A DNA stretch of 55,742 bases from an uncultured Bacilli bacterium (GCA_944372415.1 CALVZA010000014.1:1-55742), one strand, 5' to 3'; counted from the first letter of the stretch, positions 26,748 through 31,974 are shown. Notes: a model not told the origin generated them from the sequence alone. Program-made: numbers and translations.

Positions 26748-27089
26748 CTAATGATGTTTTATAATATTTAAATAAGTTAAAAAGTTAACATCAGTATCTC
26801 TGTTATAAGGTCTCCAAGCTTTATGATAAAATATTTGTGATTTAAACCAAAAGTATGAATATATATGAACAACAGTCTTATCTACTGCTTCAAGTTGTAC
26901 AACTAGGTAATCCTCTCCATAAACATGACACAGCTTAATTTTTACTGAATAAAAATTCATTTCATAAGATGTATAACTAGTATAAACAGCTTTGACGTTC
27001 CTAATAAATCATCGCAATTTCCTTTTCTACAATATTTTCTCCCCCAAATCTTGCATCATAATTTCATTATCAAAACTAGAATCATACAT
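26748..27089 (-). pseudogene. Possible degraded gene remnant
   Basis: The 70-aa ORF frame extends back to ATG 27089 (MYDSSFDNEIMMQDLGEKIL*KRKLR*FIRNVK...) through two stops; a 330-bp gap in an otherwise tightly packed operon. Confidence 0.3.
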
Positions 27090-28881
27090 TTAAATTAGAA
27101 CTAGCACCACTTTCAGTAGTAGCACCTTCATATCTATAAACAGTTATATAATCATGGCCACTATCCCTAAAATGAACATGCCCTCCACTATTATCTGTTG
27201 TAATAGTATTATTAGTTGGGTAAGTAGATTTTATAGACCCCCACCCAAATGTATGTGCATCATCTATATAAATCTCAGCATGTTGGCCCTTAGTACTATA
27301 TAAAGTTCCAGAGTGTGCAACTAAAACGTCCCCAGTTTGTAAAGTTCCAATATCATCACTAGAATAAGCCTTCCAACCATAATTTCCAACAGTTTTAGCC
27401 CAAGAACCATTTGGATATACCATTTCACCTGAATAACTTTCAGGTAAATCAACTCCACTTACATAAGACATATAAGCAGCCGCAAATTCAGTACAATCGT
27501 CCCCAAAAGCACGTGTACCAAAAGGAGTTTCATAATATTTCCTACTCCCACTACCCTTACCACTTGTTCTATTTTGATAAGTATTTACATTAGCTATATA
27601 CCAATTAGCAATTTCTTCAAGTTTTCCTGCCACATCTCCCGATGCACTACCACACATTATTTTACCAGAATTACTTAGATTAGTAGTAATAAAATTATTA
27701 ACACTTTTATAAGTCTCATCATCATAATGAAGACCATCACTACTTCCAACATTACTTAAACTACTATAAGAATCTATGTAATTAGAAGAAAAATTATCTC
27801 TTAATTTTTTATTAAAACCTTCTATTTCATTATTTGTAATAGAGTAACCATTACTAACAGTTTTACTTTCATCAACAGGATTAACTGATAAAACATAAAA
27901 TTTAGTACTAGGATATTTAGTTATTAAAGATTTATAAGCTTCAATATAATTATCTATATTATATAAATCATTAACACCCAACGATAATATAACAACTCCA
28001 TCAGTTTTTTCTTGCAATTTACTGTCTAATAAACTCAACCCAGTAGTGGTTAACCAATCATAACCTTTACCTGATTCAGCAATATAACTTGCATTTTCAT
28101 TTCCAACTGCAGACTGCATCCCTAAAGCCCTAGAGTCTCCTACATAAATTAATTTATTTTCAACTTCTTCCGGAGTGCAATTTCTCATTCCTTGGCCCTT
28201 TGAAGTCATATTCGTCCCATTTGTTAAAGTTAAGTTTTTAATATCATCACTTGCAAATACAGAAACACATATCATAAATAATAAGAATACTGCTCCACAA
28301 CCAATAACCATTTTAATTTTTAAAGGTGTAGGAAGTTTAGCAAATAAATTACCTAAAACATCACCATTATCTAATGAACTAGTAGATGAACCACCATTAC
28401 TATTACCAAATAGTCCATCCATTTTACTTTTATTATTTCCTTTTGTTCCTCCTGAAGTGCTACCTCCTTGAAAACCACTAGAAGGCTTAGAATTATTTAA
28501 AGCACTGGCTCCTTTACTCCCAGCACTTCCTGCACTAGGACCATTTTTCATCGAAATTAAATCTTTTGCTTGCTTAGCTGTATCTGTTATACCAGCATCA
28601 TCTGCTTTTTTTAACACATTTCCAACTGGACTTTTAGCTAAAGGTTTTGCAACAGTTTTTACAGCTTTATCCCAAGTATTTTTTACAGCAGAACCAACTA
28701 TAGGAACTTGTTCAGCCATATTTTTAATTTGACTTCCTTTACCTCCAGTAAAATAATCTAAAGCAACTTCTCCAGCAAGATCAACTGCCTTTTCAGTAGA
28801 TTCTTGTTTCTGTTCTTTTTTACTTTTTGGTTCTTCTTGTTCCACATCAACATTATTCGGATTAGCCTTATAAGTTCCCAT
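27082..28881 (-). CDS. Membrane-anchored SGNH esterase + NlpC/P60-type (Cys-His) amidase/peptidase fusion
   Basis: TM segment, then GDSR / ESGKG / LGVND / DGLHY (SGNH blocks); C-terminal GDDCTEFAAA...LQTGDVLV...HAEIY. Confidence 0.8.
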   Translation of the reverse strand: MGTYKANPNNVDVEQEEPKSKKEQKQESTEKAVDLAGEVALDYFTGGKGSQIKNMAEQVPIVGSAVKNTWDKAVKTVAKPLAKSPVGNVLKKADDAGITDTAKQAKDLISMKNGPSAGSAGSKGASALNNSKPSSGFQGGSTSGGTKGNNKSKMDGLFGNSNGGSSTSSLDNGDVLGNLFAKLPTPLKIKMVIGCGAVFLLFMICVSVFASDDIKNLTLTNGTNMTSKGQGMRNCTPEEVENKLIYVGDSRALGMQSAVGNENASYIAESGKGYDWLTTTGLSLLDSKLQEKTDGVVILSLGVNDLYNIDNYIEAYKSLITKYPSTKFYVLSVNPVDESKTVSNGYSITNNEIEGFNKKLRDNFSSNYIDSYSSLSNVGSSDGLHYDDETYKSVNNFITTNLSNSGKIMCGSASGDVAGKLEEIANWYIANVNTYQNRTSGKGSGSRKYYETPFGTRAFGDDCTEFAAAYMSYVSGVDLPESYSGEMVYPNGSWAKTVGNYGWKAYSSDDIGTLQTGDVLVAHSGTLYSTKGQHAEIYIDDAHTFGWGSIKSTYPTNNTITTDNSGGHVHFRDSGHDYITVYRYEGATTESGASSNLNV

Positions 28882-28895
28882 AATTCACCGCCTTA

Positions 28896-29899: not shown

Positions 29900-29913
29900 T
29901 ATTTATCACCCTT

Positions 29914-31974
29914 TTATCCATAGACATTCATATTATAATTATTGTTAACAAATAAGTCACACTCTGCTACTCTACGCTTTTTTAACCCACTTAAATAATT
30001 TCCATTAGCATCATGTAAAGCTTTTTGTTCCCACCAATTGCTACATAATGCACTTGTAGAACCATAAGCAGCATACGCTTCAAAAAAGCCATTAATATTT
30101 CCACAATTAAATTGTAAACTTGCCAGAGCAGCAACTTGATTTTCATTTAATGTTATTCCCTTAGTAGATAACATGCCTCGAATATTATTAAATCTTCCTT
30201 GAACATCATCATTATAAATTGCATCAACTATATTTTTAGGAACTAAACTACCAACAGATAAAGTACTAGGATTAATTCCATAAGCCCTAAATGCATCTGC
30301 ATTATATTTTAAAGTAATTCCATGCCCTACTGTTGCAACTCCTCCAGAATCATTATAAACTTTGTAAAAGTCGCCTTCCATAGGTCCAGTTCCTTCCATA
30401 TTACCAATCCACTCTAAAACTTTACTATTTGTTCCACTAGGTCTTGGATTATCAGCAGATACAAAATTCAAAGGATCTTGTACAGAAGAACTATCATTTC
30501 CACCAACTCTTACCTCAAAATGTAAATGAGGTCCAGTAGAACTTCCACTATGTCCAACTTTTGCAATAACTTGACCTTGTTTTACACTATCACCAAGCTC
30601 CACTGTTATACTACCTTCTGCTAAATGAGCATATAAAGTATAATTCCCATCAACATGTTGTATTATGATATGATTCCCATATCCTCCACCGCAAGATTTA
30701 TCTCCACCATCTTTACAGACTATTCCATCAGCCTTTGTAGACTTAACAACAACTCCATCTTTACTAGCTATTACATTAGTAGAATTTAAATCCCCTGGAA
30801 TATCAATTCCAGTATGATTAGAGTTAACCTTACCACTTATAGGATGAGTTCTAAGACCAAAATTACTAGAAACAGAAGTTTTTTCTGGTGTACCTACAGC
30901 CATTAAAACACCACCAGAATCGGTCGTTTCACTACTACCTATTGGCCACCAATATTGATTTGAATTAACACTAGTAAATTGTTCAGATATTTTAGAAAAA
31001 TTATCTAACCCATAAGATTCAATTACACTCTTAATTCCCTTTACAATAGACTCTCTAGCTTTTTTAATCTCATCTTTATATTTTTCTTTTTCTTCAGAAG
31101 ATAATTCAGACATTTTATCATGTCCAGTTCTTTGCAATACAAAATCAAAATAAGACTGCAAATGTTGCTTGTTATCAAAATATTCTCCATTAATTAAATA
31201 GTCCCAAAAAAATTCCTCATTAACAACTTTATCATTAGATGTTTCAAATTTTGATTCTATAAAACCTAATTCTTTAATTTTTTCACTACACTTTTTTTCA
31301 TTTTCACTACCTAAAAAAGTTAATCCAAGAGCATCAAAAAAACTTCCTTTATACGTATCTACTTTAGAAACACATTGGTTACCCATTACTATCATACTTG
31401 ATGAAGAACAAGCCTTATAAGAATTACCATTTGAATCAGTATAAGTTTTAGGCTCTTCGTTTGCAACTCCATAACATACAGAATTATAACCTATAAAACT
31501 GTTTACCAAAGTTTTTAAAGAATCTGTTTCATTCTCAAAATATTTTTTTGCACTTTCTCTATTACCATCATCACTACCAATATATTTATTAATAGTAGAT
31601 TCATTCTCATCTATTTTATAAGGATTATATTCTTTCGCTTCATCCGGATCAGCAAATGAATCAGGATTTAATCCATAAAAAACAGTAGCAATAATCAAAT
31701 TATCATTTATATATCCATATTCCTTTTGAACTTCATCTAACAACTTATATAGTCTAGTATAAAACTTTTCCTTTGTTTTCAAAACTTCATCTATACATTC
31801 TTGATCATCTTCACAAGAACTAGTCCAAAAATTTCTGTTTTGTTCCAACAACTCATCCCAATCAAAATCTGAATAAGCAAAACTAGCAGCACTACTATTT
31901 ATTCTTATAGAAAAAAAAGTTATAAAAAGAAAAACTAACAAAAGTCCATATCTTACCACAAAATTTCTTTTCAT
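29914..31974 (-). CDS. Secreted/anchored M23 endopeptidase + GH24 lysozyme fusion (VirB1-position hydrolase)
   Basis: M23 motifs HTGID, YAHL, GPHLHFEV; GH24 E-x8-D-x5-T (EGDFYKVYNDSGGVATVGHG), NQVAALASLQFNCG, GLKKRRVAECDLF. Confidence 0.88.
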   Translation of the reverse strand: MKRNFVVRYGLLLVFLFITFFSIRINSSAASFAYSDFDWDELLEQNRNFWTSSCEDDQECIDEVLKTKEKFYTRLYKLLDEVQKEYGYINDNLIIATVFYGLNPDSFADPDEAKEYNPYKIDENESTINKYIGSDDGNRESAKKYFENETDSLKTLVNSFIGYNSVCYGVANEEPKTYTDSNGNSYKACSSSSMIVMGNQCVSKVDTYKGSFFDALGLTFLGSENEKKCSEKIKELGFIESKFETSNDKVVNEEFFWDYLINGEYFDNKQHLQSYFDFVLQRTGHDKMSELSSEEKEKYKDEIKKARESIVKGIKSVIESYGLDNFSKISEQFTSVNSNQYWWPIGSSETTDSGGVLMAVGTPEKTSVSSNFGLRTHPISGKVNSNHTGIDIPGDLNSTNVIASKDGVVVKSTKADGIVCKDGGDKSCGGGYGNHIIIQHVDGNYTLYAHLAEGSITVELGDSVKQGQVIAKVGHSGSSTGPHLHFEVRVGGNDSSSVQDPLNFVSADNPRPSGTNSKVLEWIGNMEGTGPMEGDFYKVYNDSGGVATVGHGITLKYNADAFRAYGINPSTLSVGSLVPKNIVDAIYNDDVQGRFNNIRGMLSTKGITLNENQVAALASLQFNCGNINGFFEAYAAYGSTSALCSNWWEQKALHDANGNYLSGLKKRRVAECDLFVNNNYNMNVYG

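What the first reader, a model, noticed from the sequence alone, without database searches (positions are those of the whole stretch)
27082..31974. Four predicted cell-wall-attacking activities in two T4SS-linked fusion proteins
Seen: M23 (HxxxD, HxH) fused to GH24 lysozyme (E-x8-D-x5-T), and SGNH hydrolase fused to an NlpC/P60-type Cys-His domain, all with intact catalytic motifs. Established: conjugative systems usually have one VirB1-type protein (SLT/GH23 with CHAP or NlpC/P60); GH24 is typically a phage endolysin. Inference: an arsenal able to cut glycan strands, stems and cross-bridges exceeds what is needed to cross the organism's own wall and fits breaching a foreign cell wall.
Basis: partly seen in the sequence, partly recalled or inferred. 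Interest (0 to 1): 0.75.

Follow-up and report, generated by a model that had tools for sequence, protein, structure and literature searches.

The report
Shuffled wall-cutting enzymes of chromosomal T4SS
Two multi-domain cell-wall-cutting proteins really are encoded inside a DNA/protein secretion machine of a tiny-genome gut bacterium; they look like the machine's own wall-opening tools, and the surprise is that the machine is inherited by nearly the whole bacterial family while its wall-cutting parts are swapped constantly.

Summary
ProtA (29914..31974, -) is a secreted protein with a Cys-rich N-domain of no known fold, an M23 peptidase and a GH24 lysozyme. ProtB (27082..28881, -) is cytoplasmic tail, TM helix, SGNH esterase and a divergent NlpC/P60-type Cys-His domain. 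Catalytic residues are present in all four. Both lie between the VirB4 and VirD4 genes.

The surroundings change the reading. This is not a sporadic ICE. The VirB4 orthologue is single-copy, 65-87% identical, and present in 92 of 101 genus representatives of the family. No relaxase was found in this genome with three Pfam families. VirB4 is as conserved as ribosomal proteins, whereas the hydrolases are 31-69% identical and swap catalytic domains even between close relatives. In 48 of 50 sampled loci the ORF(s) between VirB4 and VirD4 carry other mixes of wall-hydrolase domains.

Most likely these are VirB1-type (PrgK/TraG/CwlT-like) wall-opening enzymes, in a new domain combination at the top of the family's range. 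The "foreign wall" idea is neither shown nor excluded.

Earlier notes of this scan already describe this chromosomal T4SS (naming order RF39) and a four-domain hydrolase on other DNA.

The parts
29914..31974 (-). ProtA, 686 aa: signal peptide or anchor, Cys-rich N-domain, M23, GH24
30985..31887 (-). ProtA N-domain (aa ~30-330). Six invariant Cys (C54, C60, C167, C189, C201, C229). No match to a known fold.
   Evidence: AlphaFold pLDDT 81, pTM 0.76. Best VIA Z 3.6. Best Foldseek E 0.96. Invariant columns.
30496..30819 (-). M23 metallopeptidase domain (aa 386-493), with H387xxxD391 and H483xH485
29962..30381 (-). GH24 lysozyme domain (aa 532-671). E533/D542/T548 match T4 lysozyme; E527 is the Glu kept across the family.
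29393..29899 (-). s168: small protein with an N-terminal TM helix that always follows ProtA-like genes. A VirB8/NTF2-like partner is suspected but not shown.
28896..29396 (-). s166: distant paralogue of s168
   Evidence: hhalign probability 91%
27082..28881 (-). ProtB, 599 aa: low-complexity N-terminal tail, TM helix, SGNH, Cys-His domain
28249..28317 (-). Predicted TM helix of ProtB (aa ~189-211). The lysine-rich stretch before it suggests N-in topology.
   Evidence: read from the sequence; no TM predictor was run
27652..28170 (-). SGNH esterase domain (aa ~238-410), with S250, G302/N304 and D382/H385
27112..27639 (-). Divergent NlpC/P60/CHAP-type domain (aa ~415-590), with Cys463 and His534
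26030..26734 (-). s234: probable lipoprotein with a C-terminal TM helix. Look-alikes follow the large hydrolase in 28 ORFs across the 60 sampled loci.
23695..25974 (-). VirD4-type coupling protein
   Evidence: T4SS-DNA_transf E 5.7e-58
31991..33793 (-). VirB4 ATPase piece (600 aa); core of the family-wide T4SS
33786..34346 (-). VirB4 N-terminal piece (186 aa). The split is natural and is kept in L012, L013, G008 and G046.
34660..37038 (-). VirB6-like polytopic membrane protein (matches Mycoplasma ICE Mbov_0396 / MMCAP2_0566 models)

Best explanation
ProtA and ProtB are the peptidoglycan-remodelling (VirB1-type) components of a Gram-positive-type type IV secretion system. That system is fixed in the chromosome and inherited vertically by almost the whole family of about 1 Mb-genome gut Bacilli.

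ProtB has the PrgK/TraG layout: a cytoplasmic tail, one TM helix and extracellular enzymes. Its tail probably docks it to the machine. ProtA is exported by a Sec signal and is always followed by two small membrane-anchored proteins, which may hold it at the machine.

Inferred division of labour:
- The SGNH esterase strips ester modifications, most plausibly O-acetyl groups on MurNAc, which block lysozymes.
- GH24 cuts the glycan strand.
- M23 cuts cross-links.
- The NlpC/P60-type domain cuts the stem peptide.

Together they would open a local hole in the thick wall through which the channel is built and the substrate passes.

Shown here: domain identities, catalytic residues, position in the T4SS operon, family-wide conservation of the machine, and rapid turnover of the hydrolase modules.

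Inferred: every substrate, the topology, the order of action, and whose wall is cut.
For: Domain calls.

Operon position between VirB4 and VirD4, with the gene order kept in L012, L013, G008 and G046.

In 60 genera sampled downstream of the core VirB4, VirD4 follows within 12 kb in 52. Of those, 50 have at least one ORF of 350 aa or more in between. Of those 50, 48 carry at least one wall-hydrolase Pfam domain at E <= 0.001; in two of the 48 the only hit is below Pfam's gathering score.

The N-terminal aa ~20-130 of ProtB is recognisable in the large hydrolases of five other genera whose catalytic domains differ (L039, L040, L046, L048, L057). That fits a conserved docking tail with exchangeable enzymes.

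A conjugative Parageobacillus plasmid has the same ATPase, then M23, then small-ORF order.

The PrgK layout, its interaction with the VirB8-like PrgL, and the inhibition of muramidases by O-acetylation are taken from passages of PMC11323569. The statement that Gram-positive VirB1 homologues are membrane-anchored with one or more extracellular enzyme domains comes from passages of PMC12857230.

The organism has a wall of its own to cross.
Against: The machine is as conserved as ribosomal proteins. VirB4 is 96.5% identical to L013 and 87% to G008, against 93.5% and 82% for L2. The hydrolases are 31-69% identical and change catalytic domains between close relatives. In L013 the ProtB orthologue ends in Peptidase_M15_4, and the ProtA orthologue's C-terminus is not called GH24. 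If the only target were a lineage's own, presumably stable, wall, such turnover would need another explanation.

ProtA appears secreted rather than TM-anchored, unlike the reviewed Gram-positive VirB1 homologues.

No relaxase was found in this genome with three Pfam families, so the machine's substrate is unknown.

The SGNH fold is no closer to peptidoglycan O-acetyl enzymes (OatA-C Z 15.8, PatB 14.0, Ape1 12.8) than to unrelated esterases (Z 17.1).

No OatA-type acyltransferase was found in this 83%-complete genome. AT3-only ORFs exist in the same-genus genome G160 and in G008.

No enzyme activity has been measured.
Confidence: 0.68

Rival explanations
1. Partner-wall breaching. The T4SS, for which no relaxase was found, serves a contact-dependent interaction with other bacteria, as proposed for Patescibacteria. 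The hydrolase set is aimed mainly at the neighbour's wall, either to dock and open it or as delivered lytic effectors. s168, s166 and s234 would then act as self-protection.
For: The T4SS is core to a reduced-genome family: 92 of 101 in the family sample, 141 of 150 high-quality genomes in the order sample.

It is rare elsewhere in the class. Matches at E <= 1e-60 outside the family occur in only 4 of the 179 other genomes scored, two of them at 30-31% identity.

Relaxase families are far rarer than the machine: Rep_trans 3 of 101, Relaxase 12 of 101, Mob_Pre 48 of 101, and none in this genome.

The wall-contacting proteins evolve fast and by domain shuffling while the ATPases are frozen.

GH24, Phage_lysozyme2 and CHAP are endolysin-type modules.

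The Patescibacteria precedent is in PMC12102498 (abstract and passages).

Small exported proteins always accompany the hydrolases.
Against: No effector signal, immunity relationship or target has been shown.

s168 and s166 accompany ProtA-like genes whatever the C-terminal domain is (GH24, Phage_lysozyme2, Glucosaminidase or none). That fits structural partners better than domain-specific immunity.

ProtB's layout is that of a machine-anchored enzyme.

The same ATPase, M23, small-ORF order occurs on an ordinary conjugative plasmid.

Domain shuffling is also typical of conjugation hydrolases and autolysins.
Confidence: 0.2
2. Ordinary integrative conjugative element. The cluster is a recently acquired ICE, and the two proteins are its transfer hydrolases acting on donor (and recipient) walls during element transfer.
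For: All the parts are of the conjugation type: VirB4, VirD4, a VirB6-like protein and hydrolases. Matches to Mycoplasma ICE protein models support this. Mob_Pre relaxases in 48 of 101 family genomes could use the machine in trans.
Against: The gene is single-copy and near-universal in the family, with identity tracking that of ribosomal proteins. The same chromosomal neighbours (a GT2 gene and the S10 ribosomal operon) occur in G000, L013 and G008. No relaxase domain appears in any ORF of the cluster or in the genome with three families. Some family genomes hold a separate, divergent T4SS with an unsplit VirB4 at 27-35% identity, which looks like the real mobile kind. Integrases and the other relaxase classes were not searched.
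Confidence: 0.04
3. Housekeeping or scavenging autolysins. The enzymes serve growth, sporulation or muropeptide scavenging and merely sit beside the T4SS.
For: RF39-type genomes are reported to lack some steps of peptidoglycan precursor synthesis, which might force muropeptide scavenging (PMC10868615, passages). That this genome belongs to RF39 was not verified here.
Against: The position between VirB4 and VirD4 is strictly conserved across 50 of 52 loci. ProtB's N-terminal tail is shared only with T4SS-linked hydrolases. Other M23 genes lie elsewhere in these genomes.
Confidence: 0.05

Closest known systems
PrgK of pCF10 (Enterococcus faecalis), DELTA-class Gram-positive VirB1 homologue
   Same: A T4SS-encoded hydrolase with a cytoplasmic N-terminal part, one TM helix and several extracellular hydrolase-type domains, including M23/LytM, a phage-lysozyme-like muramidase and a papain-like Cys-His domain. 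It works with a small VirB8-like partner (PMC11323569 passages; PMC12857230 passages).
   Different: Here the domains are split over two proteins. The M23 has intact zinc ligands, whereas PrgK's is degenerate. The glycan cutter is GH24. An SGNH esterase is added, which none of the passages I read mentions for T4SS hydrolases. The system is chromosomal and family-wide, not plasmid-borne.
TraG of pIP501, CwlT of ICEBs1, TcpG/TcpI of pCW3, Orf14 of Tn916
   Same: Two-activity logic, a glycan cutter plus a peptide cutter, in conjugation machines of monoderm bacteria. TraG and Orf14 are covered in the passages. The domain content of CwlT and TcpG/TcpI is recalled, not read here.
   Different: Different catalytic families (SLT/GH23 or GH73 with CHAP or NlpC/P60). 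None of these systems is described with four domains, an SGNH domain or the Cys-rich N-domain.
Chromosomal, relaxase-less MPF_FATA-derived T4SS of Patescibacteria (PMC12102498)
   Same: Reduced-genome lineage. The T4SS is near-universal and chromosomal, usually has no relaxase nearby, is built from monoderm conjugation-type parts and has pilin-like small proteins nearby.
   Different: A different phylum. The phylogenetic relation of the VirB4s was not tested here. The hydrolase content of the Patescibacteria loci was not compared.
Phage endolysins and tail lysins (modular M23, GH24, CHAP, amidase combinations)
   Same: The same catalytic modules, evolving by domain shuffling.
   Different: No phage genes surround these ORFs. 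Both carry export or anchor sequences and sit between T4SS ATPase genes.

Membership tests
Gram-positive T4SS VirB1-type wall hydrolase (functional class: PrgK, TraG, CwlT) | Encoded inside the T4SS gene cluster next to the ATPases | tested here: met
   Both genes lie between VirB4 (31991..33793) and VirD4 (23695..25974), and this order is kept in relatives.
Gram-positive T4SS VirB1-type wall hydrolase (functional class: PrgK, TraG, CwlT) | Membrane anchor with extracellular enzyme domain(s) | tested here: inconclusive
   ProtB has a hydrophobic stretch at aa ~189-211 and ProtA an N-terminal signal-like helix. No topology predictor was run. ProtA may be released.
Gram-positive T4SS VirB1-type wall hydrolase (functional class: PrgK, TraG, CwlT) | Peptidoglycan hydrolysis needed for transfer or secretion | not testable with these tools
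   Needs enzyme assays and genetics.
Peptidase M23 (PF01551) | Profile match above the curated cut-off, with HxxxD and HxH zinc ligands | tested here: met
   88.7 bits against a cut-off of 28.7. H387/D391/H483/H485 are present and kept in 108-115 of 120 homologues.
GH24 lysozyme (PF00959) | Profile match above the curated cut-off, with a catalytic Glu (plus Asp/Thr) | tested here: met
   37.2 bits against a cut-off of 22.3. E533/D542/T548 align with T4 lysozyme E11/D20/T26. The family-invariant Glu is E527, so the catalytic assignment is ambiguous.
SGNH/GDSL hydrolase | SGNH fold with blocks I, II, III and V (Ser, Gly, Asn, Asp-x-x-His) | tested here: met
   VIA Z 17.1, rmsd 2.6, 170 aligned. 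Foldseek E 1.7e-7. GDS, GVND and DGLH are kept in 34-41 of 46 aligned rows. Pfam is below its cut-off (20.2 against 23.6).
Peptidoglycan O-acetylesterase (Ape-type), as the specific role of the SGNH domain | Closer to Ape/OatA/PatB than to other esterases, with an O-acetylated substrate available | tested here: inconclusive
   OatA-C Z 15.8, PatB 14.0 and Ape1 12.8 are not above unrelated esterases at Z 17.1. No AT3 acyltransferase was found in G000. AT3-only ORFs are present in G160 and G008.
NlpC/P60 (PF00877) / CHAP (PF05257), papain-like clan | Profile match to the Pfam models | tested here: not met
   No Pfam hit at E <= 1 on the isolated domain.
NlpC/P60 (PF00877) / CHAP (PF05257), papain-like clan | Cys at a helix N-terminus and His on a strand, aligned with the family's catalytic pair | tested here: met
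   hhalign against NlpC/P60 domains of related loci gives E 8.8e-5 with Cys463 and His534 on the catalytic columns; controls give 0.16-0.59 and CHAP 0.031. Cys and His are kept in 21 of 21 full-length domain homologues. Atlas CHAP clusters score 0.92. This is a distant relative, not a Pfam-level member.
NlpC/P60 (PF00877) / CHAP (PF05257), papain-like clan | Papain-like fold by structure search | tested here: inconclusive
   Both fold searches of the two-domain model were filled by SGNH hits.
Integrative conjugative element / conjugative plasmid | Relaxase (and integrase) with the T4SS, and a patchy, mobile distribution | tested here: not met
   No relaxase domain in cluster ORFs. PF02486, PF03432 and PF01076 were not found in G000. 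VirB4 is present in 92 of 101 genera. Integrases and the other relaxase classes were not searched.
Lineage-core chromosomal T4SS with no relaxase (Patescibacteria-type situation) | Near-universal in the lineage, chromosomal, with no relaxase nearby | tested here: met
   Shared ancestry with the Patescibacteria clade was not tested.

The most novel reading that the evidence does not exclude
A whole order of about 1 Mb-genome gut Bacilli keeps a T4SS, for which no relaxase was found, as a core organelle for living off or exchanging with neighbouring bacteria. The ever-changing hydrolase cassettes (here esterase, lysozyme, M23 and NlpC/P60-type) would then be its host-range determinants, matched to the wall chemistry of the partner cells rather than to the organism's own wall. 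This would be a walled-Firmicute counterpart of the Patescibacteria epibiont machinery.
Probability: 0.17. Interest if true: 0.85.

Novelty: new variant of a known kind. Interest (0 to 1): 0.5.

Why it matters
How Gram-positive secretion and conjugation machines get through thick walls, their own and the partner's, is an open question (PMC11323569 discussion).

This family offers a natural experiment. The ATPase core is almost frozen, yet dozens of alternative hydrolase cassettes sit on it, including an esterase-plus-lysozyme pairing that suggests de-O-acetylation as a licensing step.

If cassette type tracks the organism's own wall chemistry, that gives rules for how T4SSs adapt to walls. If it tracks the partner's wall chemistry, it would point to a neighbour-dependent lifestyle in a common, uncultured group of gut bacteria.

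Tried and rejected
- Fold search for ProtB's C-terminal domain: both searches of the two-domain model returned only SGNH hits.
- Sequence searches of that domain against Pfam and PDB gave nothing meaningful.
- ProtA N-domain: there is a confident model but no structural relative (best VIA Z 3.6; best Foldseek E 0.96), so no function can be proposed.
- s168 and s166 as VirB8-like proteins: profile searches against PDB gave only chance-level hits (E 0.03-1.4). The protein-language search gave mostly unnamed clusters and one NTF2-like lead at 0.91 with 151 features.
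- Complex prediction of ProtA (aa 30-686) with the s168 ectodomain gave no answer (score 0.28, mark 0.32).
- OatA test for a self O-acetyl substrate: inconclusive.
- The search for related loci in genome contigs returned only 2 relatives.
- Literature: searches for RF39 with 'type IV secretion' (3 unrelated papers) and for RF39 with T4SS, VirB4, VirD4 or conjugative (none of the 10 papers listed, out of 2,811 holding at least two of the terms, contains RF39) found no paper on this system. UBA660 (25 papers, titles and abstract starts of the 15 listed read) gave none either. Supplements were not read.
- Considered and dropped: a wall-less organism needing no hydrolase. The genome has PBP and Mur-ligase genes.

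Full report
**What is there.** The finding covers two ORFs on the minus strand with two small ORFs between them.

ProtA (29914..31974, 686 aa) has these parts:
- An N-terminal signal-like helix.
- A roughly 300-aa domain with six invariant cysteines. It models confidently (pLDDT 81, pTM 0.76) but matches no solved fold (best VIA Z 3.6; best Foldseek E 0.96).
- An M23 peptidase, aa 386-493 (88.7 bits, cut-off 28.7).
- A GH24 lysozyme, aa 532-671 (37.2 bits, cut-off 22.3).

The zinc ligands H387xxxD391 and H483xH485 are present and kept in 108-115 of 120 homologues. Across 96 homologues, though, the invariant Glu is E527 (94 of 96) and E533 is kept in only 26. An acid is present either way.

ProtB (27082..28881, 599 aa) has a low-complexity tail, a hydrophobic helix at about aa 189-211, and two further domains.
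- The first is an SGNH esterase. It falls below Pfam's cut-off, but the fold is clear (VIA Z 17.1, rmsd 2.6, 170 aligned; Foldseek E 1.7e-7) and all blocks are intact.
- The second, C-terminal, domain is invisible to Pfam and to PDB sequence search.

Four results identify that second domain as a distant NlpC/P60/CHAP-type enzyme:
- Cys463 starts a helix and His534 starts a strand.
- Both residues are kept in 21 of 21 full-length homologues of the domain.
- A profile-profile comparison aligns them with the catalytic Cys and His of NlpC/P60 domains from related loci (E 8.8e-5; controls 0.16-0.59).
- A protein-language search lists CHAP clusters first.

I could not fold-search this domain alone.

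**The surroundings.** The two genes lie between the VirB4 ATPase (31991..33793, preceded by its separately encoded N-terminal piece) and VirD4 (23695..25974). A VirB6-like protein and pilin-like small proteins lie upstream. The genome (0.99 Mb, 83% complete) has PBP-type and Mur-ligase genes, so the organism is walled.

**The cluster is not a sporadic mobile element.**
- The VirB4 orthologue is single-copy, about 600 aa and 65-87% identical. It occurs in 92 of 101 genomes, each from a different genus of the family, and in 75 of the 80 high-quality ones.
- It occurs in 142 of 151 genomes of an order-level sample.
- It occurs in 20 of 20 family members of a class-level sample. Of the 179 other genomes scored, in 27 other families, only four match at E <= 1e-60, two of them at 30-31% identity.
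- The gene order of the whole cluster is kept in L012, L013, G008 and G046. In G000, L013 and G008 it abuts the same GT2 gene and the S10 ribosomal operon.
- VirB4 is as conserved as ribosomal proteins: 96.5% and 87% identity to L013 and G008, against 93.5% and 82% for L2. ProtA is 49.5% and about 42% identical to those two genomes and ProtB 42% and 46.5%; with L012 and G046 included the range is 31-69%.
- Relaxase families are much rarer than the machine: Rep_trans 3 of 101, Relaxase 12 of 101, Mob_Pre 48 of 101, mostly on other contigs, and none in this genome. Only these three families were searched.

**Census of the hydrolase slot.** I fetched 12 kb downstream of the core VirB4 in 60 genera.
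- VirD4 follows in 52 of the 60.
- Of those 52, 50 have at least one ORF of 350 aa or more in between.
- Of those 50, 48 carry at least one wall-hydrolase Pfam domain at E <= 0.001. In two of the 48 the hit is below gathering score.

The domains found are SpoIID, M23, CHAP, NlpC/P60, Peptidase_C39_2, Amidase_3, Glucosaminidase, GH24 and Phage_lysozyme2, in many combinations of one to three. These counts are a floor, because Pfam misses the SGNH domain and the divergent Cys-His domain. The G008 orthologue of ProtB, for example, returned no family.

Two modules recur:
- Module B is a large tail-TM-enzymes protein followed by an s234-like protein. It is present in the majority of loci.
- Module A is a ProtA-like M23 protein followed by s168 and usually s166. 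It is present in 11 of 60 loci.

Both modules occur together in 6 of 60 loci, as in the window. The exact four-domain set recurs only in G008. In L013, whose VirB4 is 96.5% identical, the ProtB orthologue ends in Peptidase_M15_4 instead. Metagenome homologues show the same swapping.

**Comparison with the known.** PrgK of pCF10 has the same tail-TM-multidomain layout (LytM, a phage-lysozyme-like muramidase and CHAP) and binds the VirB8-like PrgL. Its authors note that O-acetylation inhibits muramidases (PMC11323569, abstract and passages). A 2025 review states that Gram-positive VirB1 homologues are membrane-anchored with one or more extracellular enzyme domains (PMC12857230, passages).

In the plasmid collection only the M23 part of ProtA finds matches: 1144 records, none covering 80% or more. 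ProtB matches one record, through SGNH alone. A conjugative Parageobacillus plasmid shows the same order of ATPase, M23 and small ORF.

The closest situation for the machine as a whole is the chromosomal, mostly relaxase-less T4SS of Patescibacteria (PMC12102498, abstract and passages).

I found no paper linking RF39 with a T4SS. That this lineage is RF39 is taken from earlier notes of this scan and fits the record titles of relatives, 'Bacilli bacterium' and 'uncultured Tenericutes bacterium'. I did not verify it.

**Reading.** Most likely (about 0.68) these are the machine's wall-opening enzymes, in a new and unusually rich domain combination. The esterase probably licenses the lysozyme; that step is inference.

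It is kept alive (about 0.2) by three things: the core status of the machine with no relaxase found, the reduced genome, and the rapid turnover of exactly the wall-contacting parts.

An ordinary ICE is largely excluded by the distribution.

**What remains open.** Whose wall is cut, what the machine transports, the substrate of the SGNH domain, the role of the Cys-rich N-domain, and the roles of s168, s166 and s234.

Noticed in passing
window 50658..55271 (-): A 1537-aa protein with two FtsK/SpoIIIE stretches (E 1.3e-39), of the EssC/T7SS-ATPase or DNA-translocase type. It lies upstream of the T4SS cluster, beyond an RNase J gene, and is not syntenic in G008.
   Followed up: no
window 42147..43265 and 44029..46731 (-): Two proteins with Cadherin-like beta-sandwich domains. 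They belong to the syntenic T4SS cluster in L012, L013, G008 and G046 and are candidate adhesins of the machine.
   Followed up: partly
window 37022..37375 and 37463..37816 (-); N-terminus of 34660..37038: Small two-helix proteins, and the N-terminus of the VirB6-like protein, give weak T4SS_pilin (PF18895) hits below the cut-off. Earlier scan notes describe such pilin-like arrays in related genomes.
   Followed up: no
family genomes, e.g. G035:C37, G031:C61, G067:C5, G094:C41, G070:C2, G073:C6: A second, divergent T4SS with an unsplit VirB4 of about 780-860 aa at 27-35% identity occurs in some genomes. In five of these six genomes (not G031) an M23 gene lies close by. These are probably genuine mobile elements beside the core machine.
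   Followed up: no
family genomes: Mob_Pre (MOB_V) relaxases occur in 48 of 101 genomes, often in several copies and mostly on contigs other than the VirB4 contig. Many small mobilisable elements may use the core T4SS in trans.
   Followed up: no
window 33786..33793: The VirB4 N-terminal piece and the ATPase piece overlap by 8 bases. The split is kept in L012, L013, G008 and G046, so it is natural and not a frameshift, as earlier scan notes also concluded.
   Followed up: partly
window 22746..23681 (+): A family-2 glycosyltransferase on the opposite strand sits between VirD4 and the S10 ribosomal operon. It is in the same place in L013 and G008, at 76% and 64% identity.
   Followed up: no
class-level sample: G219:C76 and G212:C10: Two genomes assigned to other families carry close VirB4 orthologues, at 73% and 61% identity. 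This could reflect transfer, misbinning or shared ancestry of the machine beyond the family.
   Followed up: no
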